In this document: one piece after another, positions 5,058-56,718 of the stretch
Numbering within the stretch: position 1 is the stretch's first letter
Layout: each line of letters starts with the position of its first letter
Assembly (NCBI GenBank): GCA_965205165.1
Contig: OZ242037.1
Location: forward strand, 937,619-1,001,618
Direction of reading: 5' to 3'
DNA: 64,000 nucleotides
Source of the DNA: Dehalococcoidia bacterium
GTDB taxonomy: Bacteria; Chloroflexota; Dehalococcoidia; Bin125
Translations under genes and position numbers: made by a program
Notes under the pieces: generated by a model
Database searches by the model: none
Told to the model about the DNA's origin: nothing
The model's input: the letters and a program-made list of their open reading frames with translations, nothing else

Positions 5058-5372
5058 ATGGATGCACTGCCCATCGATCTGTCTTGGAACCGGGCGACAA
5101 TGGCCGAACTCGCGGCGCATGATCTGACCGTCGCTGACGCATACGGCGTGTTCCAGAACCAGCCCGAGTTCTACGCGCAGCAACCTTCGCCTGAGATCGG
5201 ACGGCAGGGCACCTACCGCTACCGCCCTGAGCGGCTGATGATGATCGGCCCGACCAGATCGGGGCGCATGTTGAGCTTTATCCTTGAACTGCCGGATGCC
5301 GACCGGTTGTGCCATGTCGTGACCGGTTGGGATTCGACCCTGGAAGAGATCGAGGCCTATGACCAGACCTAA
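5058..5372 (+). CDS. BrnT-like (DUF497) ribonuclease toxin
   Basis: 104 aa. The pattern LSWNRATMAELAAHDLTVADAYGVF...ERLMMIGPTRSGRMLSFILE...DRLCHVVTGWDSTLEEIEAY follows the DUF497/BrnT consensus (F-WD..K...N..KHGV.F.EA..VF ... EER..AIG....GR.L.VV.......IRIISAR.A...E...Y). It overlaps the next ORF by 14 nt. Confidence 0.55.
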   Translation: MDALPIDLSWNRATMAELAAHDLTVADAYGVFQNQPEFYAQQPSPEIGRQGTYRYRPERLMMIGPTRSGRMLSFILELPDADRLCHVVTGWDSTLEEIEAYDQT

Positions 5373-5652
5373 CCCTGATGAGCGGCCGATCCACCCCGCA
5401 CGGGAAGAATTCGGCAGCATCAAGGACGCCGTTCGCATTGACGTCGAACTCACGGGCCCGCCGGCCGGCGAGTTCACGGTCCGTTTCGAAGGGGACCATC
5501 TGGAGCGCCTGCTGTACGGCATCCGCGAACTCGGCATCCAGCCGCTGTCGGAGTTCTTCCGCGACGCAGCACTCGCCGCCATCGACGTGCGGGAAGCAGA
5601 ACTGGCAGCCGCGAAGAAGGGCGCCGACGCAGCCGCCGGCGGCGCCGGCTGA
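5359..5652 (+). CDS. BrnA-like antitoxin (ribbon-helix-helix-like), cognate of the BrnT-like toxin
   Basis: 97 aa. Its start overlaps the upstream toxin. The FTVRFEGDHLERLLYGIRELGIQPLSEFFRDAAL segment resembles the strand-helix-helix of BrnA antitoxins. Toxin-first gene order is the hallmark of brnTA. Confidence 0.45.
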   Translation: MTRPNPDERPIHPAREEFGSIKDAVRIDVELTGPPAGEFTVRFEGDHLERLLYGIRELGIQPLSEFFRDAALAAIDVREAELAAAKKGADAAAGGAG

Positions 5653-16075: not shown

Positions 16076-16840
16076 ATGGCGATAGTCGACCTGACGCTCG
16101 GACTCGAAGGCGATCCCCCGCCGGAGGTTTACGTGCGCGCAGCGCAGTGCCTCGACGAACTCGCGTCTGCACTCGCCGCCGAACAATCGTCCGTGCAGGC
16201 GGCGGTTTGGCACATGTCCGGCGCAGGGACGGGGCGCGGCGCGGTCAGCATCGCCGGCGAGTGCGCCAGCGACGAGCTGGCCGACGGGATTGCTCGCCGC
16301 TACTTGGCGATCGGGCGGATCCTTGCCCGCCAAGCGGCGGCGGAATGCTCCGAGCCTGTCCGCGGCACCGCTTCGGCGATGGCGCAACTGCTTCAAGGCG
16401 GGGTGGCGGCATTGCGCTTCGAAACCGCCTCCGGAACGGAATGGGCACCGCGGCCGATGCCTGAACCCCGCGAGGTTCCGGAGTGCGTGACCGGCTGGCG
16501 GGCGGCGCAAGCTGCACCGGTCGGCGTCCGCTTCGCCGTGCTCGACGAAATCTCCAGCCAGTCCGTCTCCTGCTATCTCGATCAACCCGACCAGCACCTG
16601 CATGAAGCGCTTCGCGACAGGCGCGTCACGGTGCACGGGCTGGTCACCTACCAGGCGAACGGCGAGTGCGCCGCCGTGGTGCGGGCGATCACGAAAATCG
16701 AACTCGATCTGAGCGCCCAAGACGACGCTTGGGGGCAATCCATGCAGATCGGCGCGGGAACGCCCGCCGGCCCCGGCTCCGTCACTTGGTTCCTCGAGGA
16801 GCGCGAACGCGCCAGGGAACGGTTCTGGCGTGAACGGTGA
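16076..16840 (+). CDS. hypothetical protein (254 aa), translationally coupled to the downstream PIN gene
   Basis: ATG preceded by gaggg. Third-position GC is coding-like. It ends (…WFLEERERARERFWRER*) 11 nt inside the PIN gene start. The antisense track ORF 15941..16738 is Arg-rich junk. Confidence 0.55.
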   Translation: MAIVDLTLGLEGDPPPEVYVRAAQCLDELASALAAEQSSVQAAVWHMSGAGTGRGAVSIAGECASDELADGIARRYLAIGRILARQAAAECSEPVRGTASAMAQLLQGGVAALRFETASGTEWAPRPMPEPREVPECVTGWRAAQAAPVGVRFAVLDEISSQSVSCYLDQPDQHLHEALRDRRVTVHGLVTYQANGECAAVVRAITKIELDLSAQDDAWGQSMQIGAGTPAGPGSVTWFLEERERARERFWRER

Positions 16841-17303
16841 GTCCTTCGACTATTGGGACGCATCGGTGTTCATCCACCGGGCCAGCGCCAATCCCGATCA
16901 TCTCCCCGCAATCGAGCGGACATTGGGGCGTTACGCGCCCGGCGAGCGCCGCATCGCCACATCGGCACTGACCCTCGCGGAGGTCGCGTTCACTGCCTCG
17001 GAGATCGTGCGCGGCGCGCGCAACGAAGTCACATTCGCGCCCTCCGCCGAACAGGAGCAGCGGATCGAGCGGATGCTGTCCAACGCCGCGGAAGTCCGCA
17101 TCGTCCCGCTCGATGAGGAGATCGGACGCCGCGCCCGCGCACTCGTCCGACTCGCGCTTAGCGAAAGCCGCCGCCTCGATCCTCCCGACGCGGTCCACCT
17201 GGCCACTGCAGAGGCGGTCGGAGCAACCGCCGTCTATACCTACGACGGCAAGTGGGCGGCTTGGGCGCGAACGCTCAACGTGAAGATCGGGAGGCCGGAG
17301 TAA
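16830..17303 (+). CDS. PIN-domain ribonuclease (VapC-like toxin)
   Basis: GTG start. The four acidic PIN residues are present: DASVFI, LAEV, DAVHLATA, TYDG. Its 3' end overlaps the TPK 3' end convergently by 29 nt. Confidence 0.75.
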   Translation: MNGESFDYWDASVFIHRASANPDHLPAIERTLGRYAPGERRIATSALTLAEVAFTASEIVRGARNEVTFAPSAEQEQRIERMLSNAAEVRIVPLDEEIGRRARALVRLALSESRRLDPPDAVHLATAEAVGATAVYTYDGKWAAWARTLNVKIGRPE

Positions 17304-38664: not shown

Positions 38665-39072
38665 TCAGAGCGCGCCCAAGTCCGCCAGTTCCGGCTCGCC
38701 GTCCAAGGTCGTCGAGAAGACGAACGGTCGGGGCTGGCCCGCATCGATCTCCCGTAGCCAATCCCAGCGCTGCATGAGGAACTGCAGCACCTCGAAGTTC
38801 GACGGATTGGCGACTTGGAGGACCACCATCCCGACATCGTGCCGGATGAGCTGCTCCAACTCTGGCGGGCTGGAGAGGATCCGGCGGTCCCGCGTCACGG
38901 CCAGCCATCCCGCGCCGCCCACTGCCGCGAGCCACTCTTCGTCGGTCACCGTCCGCCCGGTTCGCAGCGTTTCGGGAAAGAGCGTGAAGACGTTCGCAAC
39001 ATCGCGGATGCCGAGGCTGAACAGCGCGAGCGCGATTCGGTGCGAGATGTTCTGGTCCAAGAACAACTTCAT
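38665..39072 (-). CDS. DUF5615-family PIN-like nuclease (putative toxin)
   Basis: MKLFLDQNISHRIALALFSLG... is the characteristic N-terminus of Mut7-C/PIN-like DUF5615. 4-nt overlap with the upstream DUF433 gene. Confidence 0.6.
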   Translation of the reverse strand: MKLFLDQNISHRIALALFSLGIRDVANVFTLFPETLRTGRTVTDEEWLAAVGGAGWLAVTRDRRILSSPPELEQLIRHDVGMVVLQVANPSNFEVLQFLMQRWDWLREIDAGQPRPFVFSTTLDGEPELADLGAL

Positions 39073-39725
39073 CGGTCGGCGTAGAACTCAATGACGGCCT
39101 CGACCTCGGCCGGCGCGAGGTCGTAGTCCCACACGATTTGGGCGACTGTTTGGCCGCCGTCCAGCATTTCGGCGATGAGCTCCGCGGTCAGGCTGCGATC
39201 CCGCAGCGTTAGCCGCCCGCCCCGCACCAGCGGATCGCAATTGAGCAGCGCGCCGCGCCCGAGCGGGAAGAAGAAGCCCGCCCAAGCGTCGGTGTAGCCG
39301 AATCTGGAACGCGCATTGGCCTCGATCTCGCGGGCAAGCTCAGGGGTGAGCAGCGGGGTGCCATCAGGCGCCGCATCGCGTTCCCCGCCGTCGGCGTGCC
39401 GGCAGATCGTACCCATCTCGACGCGGGCGAACGGGTACCGCGTATCAAGCCGCGCGTCCGCATATGCGCGGATATCCCGAATCCGATCGTCGGACAATCC
39501 ATTCCGCATCAGCATGCCCGCGAGATCGAGCTCGACCAGATCGAGGAAAGAAATCTGACGACCGTTTCCGTTTTCGCCGCCGTCTCCCAGCAGCGGCGGC
39601 GCGCCGCTGGGCGATCCCGAGCCGAACCATGACGCGATCTTCCGAGGATCCACACCCGTCAGTTGCGCAGCTTCGCCGAGCTCGTAGACGGGACTGGTCC
39701 GGGCGCGGTCGGGGGGCGTTTCCAC
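39069..39725 (-). CDS. DUF433-domain protein with N-terminal extension (putative antitoxin/partner of DUF5615)
   Basis: C-terminal ...LTAELIAEMLDGGQTVAQIVWDYDLAPAEVEAVIEFYA matches DUF433. The N-terminus has an HTH-like AAQLTGVDPRKIASW. Confidence 0.6.
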   Translation of the reverse strand: METPPDRARTSPVYELGEAAQLTGVDPRKIASWFGSGSPSGAPPLLGDGGENGNGRQISFLDLVELDLAGMLMRNGLSDDRIRDIRAYADARLDTRYPFARVEMGTICRHADGGERDAAPDGTPLLTPELAREIEANARSRFGYTDAWAGFFFPLGRGALLNCDPLVRGGRLTLRDRSLTAELIAEMLDGGQTVAQIVWDYDLAPAEVEAVIEFYADR

Positions 39726-54232: not shown

Positions 54233-55302
54233 CCGCCGCGGCCGCGCCGCCCGCCCCCGTGCTCGCCGCCCGCGCGCTCAGCGCCGGCTACGGCCGCCGC
54301 CGGCGCTCCGTCGTGCTCTCGGACATCGAGCTCGAAGCGCGGCCGGGCGAGCTGATCGCGCTGCTCGGCCGCAACGGCGCCGGCAAGTCGACGCTGCTGC
54401 GCACCCTCGCCGGCCTCCAGAAGCCGCTCGCGGGATGCGTCGAACTGGACGGCCAGCCGCTCTCCCGCCGCAGCCCGGGCGACGCCGCCCGCCGCCTCGC
54501 CGTCGTCCTCACCGACCCGGTCGACGCGGCCCAGCTCACCGCGCTCGACGTCGTCGGCCTCGGCCGCGCGCCGCATTCCGGCTTCTCCGGCCGCCTCTCC
54601 GCGGCGGACGCCGCCGCCGTCCGCCGCGCCTTCGAGCAGGCCGGCGCGGCGCCGCTCGCCGACCGGCAGGTCGCCTCGCTCTCCGACGGCGAGCGCCAGC
54701 GCGTGATGATCGCCCGCGCCCTCGCGCAGGAGCCCGCCGTGCTGCTGCTCGACGAGCCCACCGCCTTCCTCGACCTGCCCGCCCGCGTCGAAACCGCCGC
54801 GCTGCTCCGCCGCCTCGCCCACGACGGCGGCCTCGCCACCGTGATCGCGACCCACGACTTCGACACTGCGCTCCGCCACTGCGACCGCCTCTGGCTGCTC
54901 GGAAGCGGCGACCGCCCCGCCGTCGGCGCGCCCGAAGACCTGGCCTTCAGCGGCGAACTCGCACGGGTCTTCGGCGACCCGGCGCTGCGCTTCGACCCGT
55001 CGGCGATGACCTTCGAGCCGGACGCGGCCCCCGGCATCCCCGTCCACGTATCCGGCGACGGCGCGGCGGCCGGCCTCGCGCGCCTCGCCCTCCGCCGCGC
55101 CGGTTGCTCCGAAGCGCCGACCGCGCACGCCGCGCAATGCCGCGTCGAAGTCGCGGAAACGGCCGGCGGAATCGCCTGGAGCGCCGACGGGCCGGGCCGG
55201 CTTTCGGCGAGCGGGAGCCTGCTTGGTGATCTATCCGCGTTTGCGCGCTACGCTGGTAGGACCTTGCCCGGTAGCTCAATTGGTAGAGCGGGCGGCTGTT
55301 AA
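54229..55302 (+). CDS. ABC transporter ATP-binding protein (FecE/BtuD-like)
   Basis: GTG start overlaps the rnd stop. GRNGAGKST, LSDGERQRV, LLLDEPTAFLD. The apparent C-terminus runs ~38 nt into tRNA-Asn. Track ORF 53236..55302 is an over-extension. Confidence 0.8.
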   Translation: MTAAAAPPAPVLAARALSAGYGRRRRSVVLSDIELEARPGELIALLGRNGAGKSTLLRTLAGLQKPLAGCVELDGQPLSRRSPGDAARRLAVVLTDPVDAAQLTALDVVGLGRAPHSGFSGRLSAADAAAVRRAFEQAGAAPLADRQVASLSDGERQRVMIARALAQEPAVLLLDEPTAFLDLPARVETAALLRRLAHDGGLATVIATHDFDTALRHCDRLWLLGSGDRPAVGAPEDLAFSGELARVFGDPALRFDPSAMTFEPDAAPGIPVHVSGDGAAAGLARLALRRAGCSEAPTAHAAQCRVEVAETAGGIAWSADGPGRLSASGSLLGDLSAFARYAGRTLPGSSIGRAGGC

Positions 55303-55340
55303 CCGCTAGGTTACGGGTTCAAGTCCTGTCCGGGCAGCCA
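55265..55340 (+). tRNA. tRNA-Asn (GTT)
   Basis: Manual cloverleaf: acceptor TGCCCGG/CCGGGCA, D-arm GCTC/GAGC, anticodon stem GGCGG/CCGCT with loop CTGTTAA, T-arm ACGGG-TTCAAGT-CCTGT, 3' GCCA encoded. Confidence 0.8.
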
Positions 55341-55413
55341 CTTCTTCTTTACGGTGCCCGCTGGCGCAGCCAGCCCGGGTGCCGAATCCGAGTGGCGGAG
55401 TGAGTCTGGTGGA

Positions 55414-55487
55414 TGGCTGCCGCGCCAGGGTTCGAACCTGAACTGAGGGATCCAAAGTCCCTAGTGCTACCGTTACACTACGCGGCA
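55414..55487 (-). tRNA. tRNA-Gln (TTG)
   Basis: Reverse complement folds as acceptor TGCCGCG/CGCGGCA, anticodon stem AGGGA/TCCCT with loop CTTTGGA, T-loop TTCGAAC, 3' GCCA. Confidence 0.7.
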
Positions 55488-55505: not shown

Positions 55506-55592
55506 TGGTACCGAGGGCCGGACTCGAACCGGCACGGGCCTGGGCCCAACGGTGTTTGAGACCGTCGCGTCTGCCAATTCCGCCACCTCGGC
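55506..55592 (-). tRNA. tRNA-Leu (CAA), long variable arm
   Basis: Reverse complement GCCGAGGTGGCGGAATTGGCAGACGCGACGGTCTCAAACACCGTTGGGCCCAGGCCCGTGCCGGTTCGAGTCCGGCCCTCGGTACCA. Anticodon loop CTCAAAC. Class II variable arm. Confidence 0.8.
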
Positions 55593-55675
55593 TCTCATTC
55601 CACCCCCAAGCCTACCACCCGAAAGCACCGCCGACGCCTCGCAGATCGGGTACCCTGACCGCCTAGGAGCCCAAT

Positions 55676-56260
55676 ATGCCCGTCGCAACCGCAGATCTCA
55701 AGGCCATCGCCGCCACCGCCACGGAAGCGGTGGCCGACATGGAAGAGGGTGCTCTCAAGGAGATCGCCTTCGCCCGGCTCCTCGACCACCTCTTGGCGGA
55801 TTCAGCACAGCCCGCATGGTCGTTCGACGACTATGGCGACTACACGTTCCGCGATCCGGACAAGGCGATCGTCGACCTCTGGCCGCGCCGCACGGAGCAG
55901 CAGCGGGCAGATGCAGTGGCGCACTACTTCTCAATCGAGCCCGAGCAGGCCGTCGCCGTGTTCGACCTCTGCGGTGACGAGCCCGTGGTGCGCTCCGTGG
56001 AAACTCTCTCATCGCCGCAGCTCGCGCTGATGGTGCTGGGCGTCCGCGCAGCTTTGGGCTTGGATTCCAACGTCGCGGACCTTCGCAAGGCTGCAGCCTG
56101 CCTGGATGCTTCGAGCGTAGATGGCACTTTGTCCTCGCTCGCGGCTGCTGACGAAATCGTCCTCCTGGCCCAAGACGACCGCCGGGACTGCCCCGTCCGT
56201 CTGCAACTTTGCGGACGCGAACATGCAGTGCGCGCCGTGCGGGATTTCCTGAACCCATGA
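55676..56260 (+). CDS. hypothetical protein (194 aa), first gene of a low-GC two-gene module
   Basis: ATG start. GC is lower than the flanks. Its stop overlaps (ATGA) the start of the next gene. Confidence 0.5.
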   Translation: MPVATADLKAIAATATEAVADMEEGALKEIAFARLLDHLLADSAQPAWSFDDYGDYTFRDPDKAIVDLWPRRTEQQRADAVAHYFSIEPEQAVAVFDLCGDEPVVRSVETLSSPQLALMVLGVRAALGLDSNVADLRKAAACLDASSVDGTLSSLAAADEIVLLAQDDRRDCPVRLQLCGREHAVRAVRDFLNP

Positions 56261-56718
56261 CCAGCGAGGAATCCGGCGAGCCGGGACTCCGTTTTGCGGA
56301 CCTCTACGGCGTATCGCGGCACACAGCGGACCTCTTTCATTCGGGATTCCATTCAGAGGCGGTGCGGCACGCGTCCCAAGAGCTGATCAACGAAGTCGGG
56401 CGCTTGGCGGGCAGGAACGACCTCGACGGCGAAGACCTGATGCATCACTCGTTCTCCGAGCAGGACCCTCTTCTCGTCCTGTCGGATCGCCGGACGCTCA
56501 CGGAGCGCGACCAGCACGCCGGATTCCGCTATCTGCTCGCGGGGATGGCCCGCTTCGTTCGGAACGTGCTGACCCACGACCTCAATGTTGAGCTGAGCGA
56601 AGGGGAAGCCTTAGAAACTCTCGCGTTCCTCAGCCTTCTCCGCCGCACTCTCGATCAAGCTCGACCGGCAGCCAGCGCAACGGGGCCGGACTCAAAAGCC
56701 GGTGATGAACGCGGCTAA
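56257..56718 (+). CDS. HEPN-like (Abi_C / TIGR02391-like) protein with Rx4H motif
   Basis: 153 aa from the ATG at 56257, in frame with track ORF 56209..56718. ...FHSEAVRHASQELINEV...GFRYLLAGMARFVRNVLTHDLNVEL contains R-N-V-L-T-H, the Rx4-6H HEPN catalytic signature, in a predicted all-helical protein. Confidence 0.5.
   Translation: MTSEESGEPGLRFADLYGVSRHTADLFHSGFHSEAVRHASQELINEVGRLAGRNDLDGEDLMHHSFSEQDPLLVLSDRRTLTERDQHAGFRYLLAGMARFVRNVLTHDLNVELSEGEALETLAFLSLLRRTLDQARPAASATGPDSKAGDERG

What the first reader, a model, noticed from the sequence alone, without database searches (positions are those of the whole stretch)
55593..56718. Low-GC two-gene module beside a tRNA-Asn/Gln/Leu cluster, second gene HEPN-like (Rx4H): candidate abortive-infection or toxin module
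Two overlapping (ATGA) genes of ~60% GC sit in a >70% GC background, directly adjacent to three tRNA genes. That is the classic signature of horizontally acquired DNA. The 153-aa product carries R-N-V-L-T-H, matching the HEPN Rx4-6H RNase motif in an all-helical context (Abi_C/TIGR02391-like). The 194-aa upstream protein is unannotatable and would be the candidate partner (antitoxin or sensor). The composition of this pair is not one of the textbook HEPN/MNT arrangements.
Basis: partly seen in the sequence, partly recalled or inferred. Interest (0 to 1): 0.65.

Follow-up and report, generated by a model that had tools for sequence, protein, structure and literature searches.

The report
Swappable HEPN RNase two-gene cassette
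Beside a tRNA cluster in a Dehalococcoidia genome sits a small inserted two-gene cassette, a predicted RNA-cutting toxin (HEPN, Ymh family) and an uncharacterised partner with a predicted DNA-binding-type (winged-helix) fold; it looks like a toxin-antitoxin or phage-defence module with a new partner family.

Summary
Two translationally coupled genes (A 55676-56260, B 56257-56718, ATGA overlap) lie between tRNA-Leu(CAA) and a CNNM gene. Their GC is low, but 64.3% rather than about 60%, against 70.8% for the window.

B is a Ymh/TIGR02391 protein (PF09509, E 4.8e-22), a published HEPN family. Its R-N-x3-H motif is kept in all nine divergent homologues aligned. No Abi_C match was found.

A hits no Pfam, NCBIfam, PADLOC or PHROG model. 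It defines a family of at least 123 metagenomic clusters. Its predicted fold has a MarR-like winged-helix C-terminal part, on weak fold matches.

A-family genes are followed by a Ymh gene in 14 of 15 distinct loci, in at least four genomic contexts. A and B co-diverge (r 0.82).

The pair is accessory. In 24 of 26 related genomes tRNA-Leu follows CNNM directly. At two fixed sites the cassette is only about 35-50% identical between genomes whose flanks are 81-97% identical, with sharp boundaries. Neighbouring variable slots carry HicAB, OLD-type, SIR2-like and DUF3800 genes.

Best reading: a HEPN RNase toxin with a cognate neutralising or regulating partner. This is a new variant of a known kind. 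RNase activity, toxicity and A's role are all inferred, not shown.

The parts
55506..55592 (-). tRNA-Leu(CAA), the landmark of the insertion site. Its 5' end abuts the cassette. In most relatives it follows the CNNM gene directly.
   Evidence: ARAGORN, Rfam. Empty-site comparison over 26 loci.
55593..55675 (.). 83-bp spacer between tRNA-Leu and gene A. It is the likely region of divergent promoters. It holds an 8-bp palindrome GGGTACCC (55648-55655) that overlaps a -10-like TACCCT, and an AGGAG ribosome-binding site at 55665-55669.
   Evidence: Sequence. The L013 allele carries GGATATCC at the same offset of -28. This is only a weak lead for an operator. The consensus promoter scan found nothing on the + strand here.
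55676..56260 (+). Gene A, 194 aa, the partner protein. Predicted N-terminal helical hairpin (about residues 5-42), disordered linker (about 46-68) and a C-terminal alpha/beta domain (about 74-192) with MarR-like winged-helix topology.
   Evidence: No hit in Pfam, NCBIfam, PADLOC or PHROGs. Family of 123 cluster representatives. AF2 pLDDT 83 with a 49-sequence alignment. Top Foldseek PDB hits are almost all MarR-family wHTH regulators, E 4e-3 to 4e-2.
56257..56718 (+). Gene B, 153 aa, a solo Ymh/TIGR02391 HEPN-domain protein and the predicted RNase effector. Its start overlaps A's stop (ATGA). Its stop overlaps the stop of the convergent CNNM gene.
   Evidence: PF09509 E 4.8e-22. TIGR02391 E 3.8e-15. 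PADLOC PD-Lambda-3_B C-terminal region E 1.2e-14. dN/dS 0.08-0.10.
56560..56577 (+). Codons for R102-N-V-L-T-H107, the HEPN Rx4H catalytic-type motif of B.
   Evidence: Invariant R, N and H in alignment A4 and in all 9 paired B proteins. Also present in plasmid-borne fused Ymh proteins.

Best explanation
The pair is an accessory two-gene conflict module of the toxin-antitoxin / abortive-infection type. B is a Ymh-family HEPN domain protein. Like other HEPN enzymes, it is expected to dimerise and use the R-N-x3-H motif as a metal-independent RNase. A is its cognate partner, made first from the same transcript and translationally coupled to B. A is proposed to bind B and keep the active site blocked. 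It is also proposed, through its winged-helix-like C-terminal domain, to bind nucleic acid (its own promoter and/or an invader's). Loss, titration or displacement of A, for example during phage infection, would free B to cleave cellular or phage RNA and stop growth.

Shown: HEPN/Ymh family membership and motif conservation; the strict, co-diverging A-B pairing; the accessory and cassette-like nature; residence in a hotspot that holds other defence- or TA-type genes.

Inferred: RNase activity, toxicity, inhibition by A, DNA binding by A, and the trigger.
For: 1. B belongs to PF09509/TIGR02391, a HEPN family with a conserved Rx4-6H motif (PMC3710099). R102, N103 and H107 are invariant across homologues 33-40% identical.

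2. B matches the C-terminal domain of component B of PD-lambda-3. PMC13190303 uses PD-lambda-3 as its abortive-infection control.

3. An A-family gene is followed by a Ymh gene, overlapping or within 34 bp, in 14 of 15 distinct loci. These fall in at least four genomic contexts: CNNM/tRNA-Leu, mfd/Na-Ca exchanger, L041 and L051.

4. Pairwise identities of A and B correlate (r 0.82, Mantel p 4e-4).

5. The pair is accessory. The site is empty in 24 of 26 related Dehalococcoidia genomes. GC3 is lowered.

6. Cassette hypervariability. Between L006 and L009 the flanking proteins are 94-97% identical, but A is 44% and B 48%. DNA identity falls from about 0.93 to about 0.5 exactly over the pair. Three alleles 36-43% identical in A occupy the tRNA-Leu site.

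7. The neighbouring variable slots hold HicA, HicB, OLD-TOPRIM/AAA_21, SIR2_2, DUF3800 and SNF2 genes.

8. A has a winged-helix-like fold. It evolves faster than B (dN/dS 0.35-0.57 against 0.08-0.10), which I take, from general knowledge, as typical of antitoxin or immunity partners.

9. Precedent. In the type IX retron a winged-helix protein wraps a HEPN nuclease and blocks its active site (bioRxiv 10.64898/2026.07.14.738597).
Against: - There is no experimental datum for any solo Ymh protein or for family A.
- The fold matches of A are weak (best E 4e-3, TM 0.33-0.54), so DNA binding is uncertain.
- No A-B complex could be modelled.
- No relatives were found in phage or plasmid collections for A. 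There is no mobile-element machinery next to the pair.
- In one Chloroflexota clade the pair keeps a fixed position after mfd in every locus recovered for that clade. That would also fit a stably inherited host function.
- The putative operator is only an 8-bp palindrome.
- One contig has a frameshifted B next to an intact A (L042). This is the expected fate of a toxin gene, but it could also be an assembly error.
Confidence: 0.6

Rival explanations
1. Sensor-effector defence pair rather than toxin-antitoxin. B is intrinsically inactive or weakly active. A is a positive sensor that recognises a phage nucleic acid or protein through its winged-helix-like domain and then activates or targets B. 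The allelic diversity reflects changing recognition specificity.
For: A is the more variable component. Between alleles A is 41-52% identical and B 48-64%, and A has the higher dN/dS. The sharpest local divergence among close relatives falls on A's C-terminal third and B's N-terminus. In the wider Ymh family the HEPN domain is usually fused to variable N-terminal domains (AbiJ-NTD1, AbiTii, pMORC), whose fusion pattern parallels the Abi families (PMC3710099). A distant A-family member is followed by a different small protein with a sub-threshold TIR-like hit, which hints at effector swapping.
Against: The gene order (partner first, effector second, ATGA coupling) and the sizes are those of classical type II TA operons. 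The TIR-like hit is below the Pfam cut-off (19.3 against 24.7 bits). Nothing distinguishes activation from inhibition computationally.
Confidence: 0.22
2. Housekeeping or regulatory RNA-processing pair. A is a transcription factor and B an RNA-processing or RNA-binding HEPN protein serving the host, for example linked to tRNA maturation or to Mfd-coupled repair.
For: The position immediately after mfd is the same in every locus recovered for one Chloroflexota clade. The window's copy adjoins three tRNA genes. B is under strong purifying selection.
Against: The pair is absent from this site in 24 of 26 relatives. Cassette alleles are 44-48% identical inside flanks that are 94-97% identical, which is not how housekeeping genes behave. 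GC3 is lowered. The two insertion contexts (tRNA-Leu and mfd) share no function. One copy has a disrupted B.
Confidence: 0.07
3. Fragment of a larger system, such as an R-M-linked Ymh module of the PrrC-like type or a retron type IX-like system, whose other components lie elsewhere or were lost.
For: Ymh genes are often embedded in R-M operons (PMC3710099; the Rhodococcus plasmid has a Ymh gene between hsdS and hsdR). L051 has a methyltransferase-like gene about 3.3 kb away. HEPN+WH pairs serve retron type IX.
Against: In the window and in the mfd loci the pair is flanked tightly by unrelated housekeeping genes. No RT, ncRNA (Rfam), R-M or ATPase gene is adjacent. The same two genes recur alone in at least four contexts.
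Confidence: 0.06

Closest known systems
Ymh / TIGR02391 (PF09509) family of HEPN domains (Anantharaman et al. 2013)
   Same: B matches nearly the full Pfam model (positions 7-119 of 119) well above the curated cut-off. It keeps the R-N-x3-H motif and is a 'solo' form, as listed for the family.
   Different: [quoted passage not shown] A dedicated upstream partner of the A family is not among them. The A profile does not match the N-terminal extensions of plasmid-borne fused Ymh proteins.
PD-lambda-3 anti-phage system (PADLOC PD-Lambda-3_A/B; abortive infection)
   Same: B aligns to the C-terminal Ymh-like region (positions 161-266 of 270) of component B (E 1.2e-14). Both are two-gene systems with a predicted HEPN effector.
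   Different: B lacks the roughly 160-residue N-terminal part of PD-Lambda-3_B. A does not match PD-Lambda-3_A or any PADLOC model. PD-lambda-3 is listed among systems with a PD-(D/E)XK nuclease domain (PMC10952713), which is absent here.
HEPN-MNT toxin-antitoxin systems (type II/VII)
   Same: A small HEPN RNase toxin with an Rx4H motif, encoded in a two-gene operon with a cognate neutralising partner. Accessory and often multi-copy.
   Different: The partner here is not a minimal nucleotidyltransferase. No MNT or NTP_transf hit was found for A, which has a winged-helix-like fold instead. Neutralisation by AMPylation is therefore not expected. The HEPN family also differs (Ymh).
Type IX retron effectors (HEPN nuclease + winged-helix protein; Retron-Kva2)
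   Same: A HEPN nuclease is paired with a separate winged-helix protein encoded by an overlapping gene. The WH protein wraps the HEPN and occludes its active site until phage infection. This is the closest mechanistic precedent for A inhibiting B.
   Different: There is no reverse transcriptase or msr/msd RNA here. The gene order is reversed (WH-like first). The retron HEPN lacks the canonical Rx4-6H histidine, whereas B has it. The retron WH protein is 245 aa, with two alpha-beta-beta-alpha-beta domains plus an HTH domain, unlike A. No sequence comparison with it was possible.
AbiE (AbiEi/AbiEii) type IV TA / Abi system
   Same: From general knowledge: an upstream winged-helix antitoxin/regulator with a downstream toxin, acting as both TA and Abi.
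   Different: The toxin there is a nucleotidyltransferase, not a HEPN protein. A has no hit to any Pfam model, AbiEi included.

Membership tests
HEPN superfamily, Ymh/TIGR02391 family (PF09509) | Significant full-length match to the family profile above the curated threshold | tested here: met
   PF09509 E 4.8e-22, 78.5 bits (cut-off 25), profile positions 7-119 of 119. TIGR02391 56.1 bits (cut-off 39.45).
HEPN superfamily, Ymh/TIGR02391 family (PF09509) | Conserved Rx4-6H motif, with a polar residue after the R | tested here: met
   R102-N103-x3-H107 is invariant in alignment A4 and in all 9 paired B proteins.
HEPN superfamily, Ymh/TIGR02391 family (PF09509) | All-alpha four-helix core, dimerisation, and metal-independent RNase activity | not testable with these tools
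Activity needs an experiment.
Type II-like toxin-antitoxin module | Two small adjacent co-oriented genes, translationally coupled and strictly co-occurring | tested here: met
   The ATGA overlap is conserved. 14 of 15 distinct A loci have a Ymh gene downstream. Co-divergence r 0.82.
Type II-like toxin-antitoxin module | The toxin is growth-inhibitory and is neutralised by direct binding of the partner; the partner autoregulates the operon | not testable with these tools
   There are only indirect hints: the winged-helix-like fold of A and an 8-bp palindrome over a -10-like box.
HEPN-MNT toxin-antitoxin | The partner is a minimal nucleotidyltransferase (MNT) | tested here: not met
   A has no Pfam or NCBIfam hit at E<=1. 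Its fold matches are winged-helix regulators.
PD-lambda-3 defence system | Both components (PD-Lambda-3_A and full-length PD-Lambda-3_B) are present | tested here: not met
   Only the C-terminal 161-266 of 270 positions of the B model are matched by B. A hits no PADLOC model.
   Only Hypoth_Ymh and a spurious LcrG hit were listed at E<=1.
Retron type IX | Retron reverse transcriptase and msr/msd ncRNA adjacent to the HEPN and WH genes | tested here: not met
   The flanks are tRNA-Leu and CNNM, or mfd and a Na/Ca exchanger elsewhere. The only Rfam hits are tRNAs. Retron ncRNAs may not be well covered by Rfam.
tRNA-targeted genomic island | Integrase gene and direct repeats duplicating the tRNA 3' end at the island borders | tested here: not met
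   There is no integrase ORF. The insert lies at the 5' side of tRNA-Leu. The only repeat is a 14-nt 13/14 match of the T-arm inside B's tail, on the wrong side and probably chance.
MarR-like winged-helix DNA-binding proteins (for A) | wHTH topology (helix, strand, helix, helix, strand-wing-strand) with a significant fold or sequence match | tested here: inconclusive
   The predicted topology fits and the top Foldseek hits are almost all MarR-family or other wHTH proteins. But E is only 4e-3 to 4e-2 and TM 0.33-0.54. There is no sequence-profile hit.

The most novel reading that the evidence does not exclude
The A-Ymh pair is a previously undescribed, self-contained anti-phage system. A winged-helix-like protein acts as an allele-specific nucleic-acid sensor and clamp for a HEPN RNase. 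In effect it would be a retron-free counterpart of the WH-HEPN effector pair of type IX retrons. The system is maintained as a hypervariable cassette that is exchanged by homologous recombination at fixed chromosomal slots (after mfd, and before tRNA-Leu) in sponge- and soil-associated Chloroflexota, rather than carried on mobile elements.
Probability: 0.25. Interest if true: 0.65.

Novelty: new variant of a known kind. Interest (0 to 1): 0.48.

Why it matters
Ymh/TIGR02391 is a HEPN family with no biochemically characterised solo member that I could find. Its only functional anchor found here is PD-lambda-3, which a 2026 paper describes as an abortive-infection system. This locus gives it a defined, compact two-gene form with a new partner family, which I saw only in metagenomes and MAGs; the few with a name attached are Chloroflexota.

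The sharp-edged allelic replacement at fixed chromosomal slots is a clean natural example of a defence- or TA-type cassette that diversifies without any visible mobile element. It also supplies ready-made sets of cognate and non-cognate A/B pairs for specificity experiments.

If A inhibits B as the WH protein does in type IX retrons, the pair would show that this control logic exists independently of retrons. It would still be one more predicted HEPN toxin module among many, so the importance is moderate.

Tried and rejected
- **Abi_C similarity.** Not found.
- **Classical tRNA-island integration.** Rejected. There is no integrase, the insert is on the wrong side of the tRNA, and the only repeat is a 14-nt near-match (55515-55528 and 56683-56696). 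That repeat falls in a B tail conserved at protein level in another clade, so it is probably chance.
- **A as the split-off N-terminal domain of fused Ymh proteins.** Rejected. The A profile gives no match to four plasmid-borne fused Ymh proteins or to PADLOC PD-Lambda-3 models.
- **Phage or plasmid carriage.** No A or B relatives in IMG/VR with the patterns used. No A-family hit in plasmid or phage records. B-like domains occur on actinobacterial plasmids, but as longer fused proteins.
- **Genome-collection scans with A.** The first attempts failed because the alignments lacked a conserved stretch. The A1 scan found no relative. The metagenome scan yielded only one locus.
- **First AF2 model of A.** With 5 sequences it was unusable (pLDDT 46.6).
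- **PDB sequence searches.** Nothing meaningful for A or B.
- **Consensus promoter and terminator scan.** Uninformative for the + strand.
- **Names.** None were attached to the ten A-family clusters checked. Of those seen elsewhere, only P0130 has an organism name attached.

Full report
**1. The observation**

- A is 55676-56260 (194 aa, ATG preceded by AGGAG).
- B is 56257-56718 (153 aa).
- They share an ATGA stop/start overlap.

Three tRNA genes lie immediately upstream: Asn 55265-55340 (+), Gln 55414-55487 (-) and Leu-CAA 55506-55592 (-).

The compositional dip is real but milder than stated.
- The module is 64.3% GC. The window as a whole is 70.8%, and the immediate flanks are 71-81%.
- Only 0.7% of windows of the same size are as low.
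- GC3 is 0.76 for A and 0.73 for B, against 0.88-0.93 in the neighbouring genes.

Both ORFs are genuine genes. Against close relatives from metagenomes, dN/dS is 0.08-0.10 for B and 0.35-0.57 for A.

**2. What B is**

B matches Pfam PF09509 Hypoth_Ymh over essentially the whole model (E 4.8e-22, 78.5 bits, cut-off 25). It also matches NCBIfam TIGR02391 (E 3.8e-15). No Abi_C match was found.

Anantharaman et al. 2013 (PMC3710099) place Ymh in the HEPN superfamily. [quoted passage not shown]

R, N and H are invariant in homologues only 33-40% identical. They are also present in the longer plasmid-borne Ymh proteins.

B aligns to the C-terminal 161-266 of 270 positions of PADLOC's PD-Lambda-3_B model (E 1.2e-14). 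PMC13190303 uses PD-lambda-3 as its abortive-infection control. Membership in PD-lambda-3 itself fails. The N-terminal roughly 160 residues of component B are missing, and component A is missing altogether.

**3. What A is**

A hits nothing in Pfam, NCBIfam, PADLOC or PHROGs. It is nevertheless not an orphan.
- A word-indexed search found only 4 relatives.
- An exhaustive HMMER search of 1.84 billion representatives found 123 proteins at E<=1e-3, 43 of them at E<=1e-10. Nearly all are 185-230 aa.
- None of 49 members hits a Pfam model convincingly.
- There is no solved relative by sequence.

With the 49-sequence alignment AlphaFold2 gives a confident model (mean pLDDT 83). It has three parts:
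- an N-terminal helical hairpin (about residues 5-42);
- a disordered, low-complexity linker (about 46-68);
- a C-terminal alpha/beta domain (about 74-192). Its last part runs helix, strand, helix, helix, strand-wing-strand, helix.

Nearly all of the top 50 Foldseek matches in the PDB are winged-helix proteins. Almost all of them are MarR-family regulators, some solved bound to DNA. The statistics are weak: E 4e-3 to 4e-2, TM 0.33-0.54, with local superpositions of about 85 residues at about 3 Å. Among matches to predicted viral structures, most of those that carry a name are winged-helix or HTH proteins, and those matches are also weak.

A therefore probably carries a MarR-like winged-helix domain. 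DNA binding is an inference.

**4. The two genes form a unit**

Wherever the region downstream of an A-family gene could be read, a Ymh gene follows. It overlaps A or starts within 34 bp. The contexts are:
- the window's own clade, between tRNA-Leu and CNNM (L001-L004);
- a 36%-identical allele, also next to tRNA-Leu(CAA) (L005);
- the closest species-level relative, with yet another allele (L013);
- a clade of Chloroflexota MAGs in which the pair sits directly after mfd and before a Na/Ca exchanger gene (L006-L012, L042-L044);
- two further, unrelated contexts (L041; L051).

That makes 14 of 15 distinct loci.

The exception is a distant family member from soil (L045, L046). It is followed, 430 bp downstream, by a different small protein. 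That protein has only a sub-threshold TIR-like hit (19.3 bits against a cut-off of 24.7).

Over nine loci the pairwise identities of A and of B correlate (r 0.82, Mantel p 4e-4). The two genes therefore diverge together as cognate pairs.

**5. The pair is accessory and cassette-like**

A scan of one genome per species with the neighbouring CNNM protein returned 28 loci. All are from Dehalococcoidia/Chloroflexota MAGs, and CNNM is 63-81% identical. This identifies the source lineage.

Of the 26 loci that reach the tRNA cluster:
- in 24, tRNA-Leu(CAA) follows CNNM directly, and the CNNM reading frame runs to within about 25-30 bp of the tRNA;
- one (L017) carries a different 2.4-kb insert with an SNF2 helicase;
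- only L013 carries an A-B pair. There CNNM is 81% identical, but A is only 43% and B 34% identical to the window's proteins.

The mfd slot shows the same pattern more starkly. Between L006 and L009, Mfd, the Na/Ca exchanger and DUF169 are 94-97% identical, while A is 44% and B 48%. DNA identity falls from about 0.93 to about 0.5 precisely over the two genes and then recovers.

Even between the window and a 93-97% identical relative (L003), identity dips to 65-77% over A's C-terminal third and B's N-terminus.

The second variable slot of the same tRNA cluster, between tRNA-Gln and tRNA-Asn, is empty in the window. In relatives it carries low-GC cargo (51-60%):
- DUF3800;
- OLD-type TOPRIM/AAA_21 proteins;
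- a SIR2_2 protein;
- HicA and HicB.

The neighbourhood is thus a hotspot for defence- and TA-type genes.

There is no integrase and no convincing att repeat. The insert is on the 5' side of tRNA-Leu, so this is not a classical tRNA-island.

**6. How it most likely works**

The anatomy is that of a type II-like toxin-antitoxin / abortive-infection module:
- the partner gene comes first and the effector second;
- the two are translationally coupled;
- the effector has an invariant catalytic-type motif and is under strong purifying selection;
- the partner evolves faster and has a nucleic-acid-binding-type fold;
- the unit is accessory, hypervariable, and located among similar cargo.

I propose the following, all of it inferred.
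- B is a dimeric HEPN RNase.
- A binds B and masks its active site.
- A may also repress the operon. An 8-bp palindrome, GGGTACCC (55648-55655), overlaps a -10-like TACCCT. The L013 allele has GGATATCC at the same offset, with symmetric changes. This is a weak lead only.
- Loss or displacement of A on infection or stress releases B, which cleaves RNA and arrests growth.

The closest mechanistic precedent is the type IX retron. There a separate winged-helix protein wraps a HEPN nuclease and occludes its active site until a phage nuclease acts (bioRxiv 10.64898/2026.07.14.738597; Mestre et al. 2020, PMC7736814). The differences here are:
- there is no reverse transcriptase or ncRNA;
- the gene order is reversed;
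- the HEPN keeps the canonical motif.

The main rival is that A is a positive sensor or specificity subunit rather than an inhibitor. A housekeeping role is unlikely given the presence/absence pattern and the allelic replacement.

**7. Comparison with what is known, and novelty**

B is a member of a known HEPN family. The two-gene architecture with the A family is not among the associations published for Ymh. It is not HEPN-MNT and not PD-lambda-3, and A is absent from four current profile libraries. I rate it a new variant of a known kind.

Limits:
- no experiment exists for either protein;
- A's fold assignment rests on weak matches;
- no A-B complex model could be run;
- the context of only about 15 of the 123 family representatives could be inspected.

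**8. Verdict**

Interest is moderate at 0.48. The case is solid and internally consistent, with a new partner family and an unusually clean cassette-replacement signature. It belongs, however, to a very crowded class of predicted HEPN toxin modules.

Noticed in passing
window 16076-17303 (+): Another overlapping pair with lowered GC3 (0.79 and 0.80). A 254-aa protein with no Pfam hit (16076-16840) is followed by a PIN-domain protein (16830-17303; PF01850, E 8.8e-14). It is probably a separate TA-like module with an unannotated partner.
   Followed up: partly
window 38665-39725 (-): A DUF433 protein (39069-39725) overlaps a PIN_10 protein (38665-39072; PF18478, E 2.3e-13). This looks like a DUF433-PIN type TA-like pair. 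The window thus carries several RNase-type two-gene modules.
   Followed up: partly
window 5058-5652 (+): Two small overlapping ORFs (104 and 97 aa) have GC3 of 0.76-0.78, well below their neighbours, and no Pfam hit. This may be another accessory pair.
   Followed up: partly
L014-L040, between tRNA-Gln and tRNA-Asn (73 bp and empty in the window, 55341-55413): In related Dehalococcoidia genomes this slot holds 0.1-3 kb of low-GC cargo that differs from genome to genome: DUF3800, OLD-TOPRIM/AAA_21, SIR2_2, HicA, HicB, an HNH-like protein and an IS-like ORF. It is a second hypervariable slot in the same tRNA cluster.
   Followed up: partly
L017 11188-13608: In MAG bin125 (MPNM01) the CNNM/tRNA-Leu slot carries a 2.4-kb insert instead of A-B. 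The insert encodes an SNF2-family helicase (614 aa) and an unannotated 177-aa protein. The same genome has its A-Ymh pair after mfd (L007).
   Followed up: partly
L045 4109-5550 and L046 3615-5056: A distant A-family member from soil metagenomes is followed not by Ymh but, 430 bp downstream, by a 142-167-aa protein. That protein has a sub-threshold hit to the CAP12/Pycsar TIR domain (E 1e-3, 19.3 bits against a cut-off of 24.7). This may be an effector swap.
   Followed up: partly
L042 3647-4076: One mfd-slot copy has an intact A, but its Ymh gene is split into 81-aa and 47-aa pieces by a frameshift. Either the toxin gene is decaying or this is an assembly error.
   Followed up: no
window 55515-55528 and 56683-56696: A 14-nt direct repeat (13 of 14 identical) of the tRNA-Leu T-arm lies inside the 3' tail of gene B. 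It is on the wrong side for an att site. The encoded tail (GPDSK) is conserved at protein level in the mfd-slot clade, so the repeat is probably chance.
   Followed up: partly
window 56715-56718: The stop codons of B (TAA, + strand) and of the convergent CNNM gene (TAG, - strand) overlap. No intergenic terminator can exist between them. The same arrangement is seen in L001-L003.
   Followed up: no
window 55593-55675 vs L013 12249-12334: The spacer between tRNA-Leu and gene A stays recognisably similar by eye (not quantified) between the window and L013, although the A proteins are only 43% identical. This suggests a shared regulatory region or one ancestral insertion followed by cassette replacement. 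In both, the native tRNA-Leu upstream sequence seen in empty-site genomes (…TCCTGATAGTCTG…) has been replaced.
   Followed up: partly
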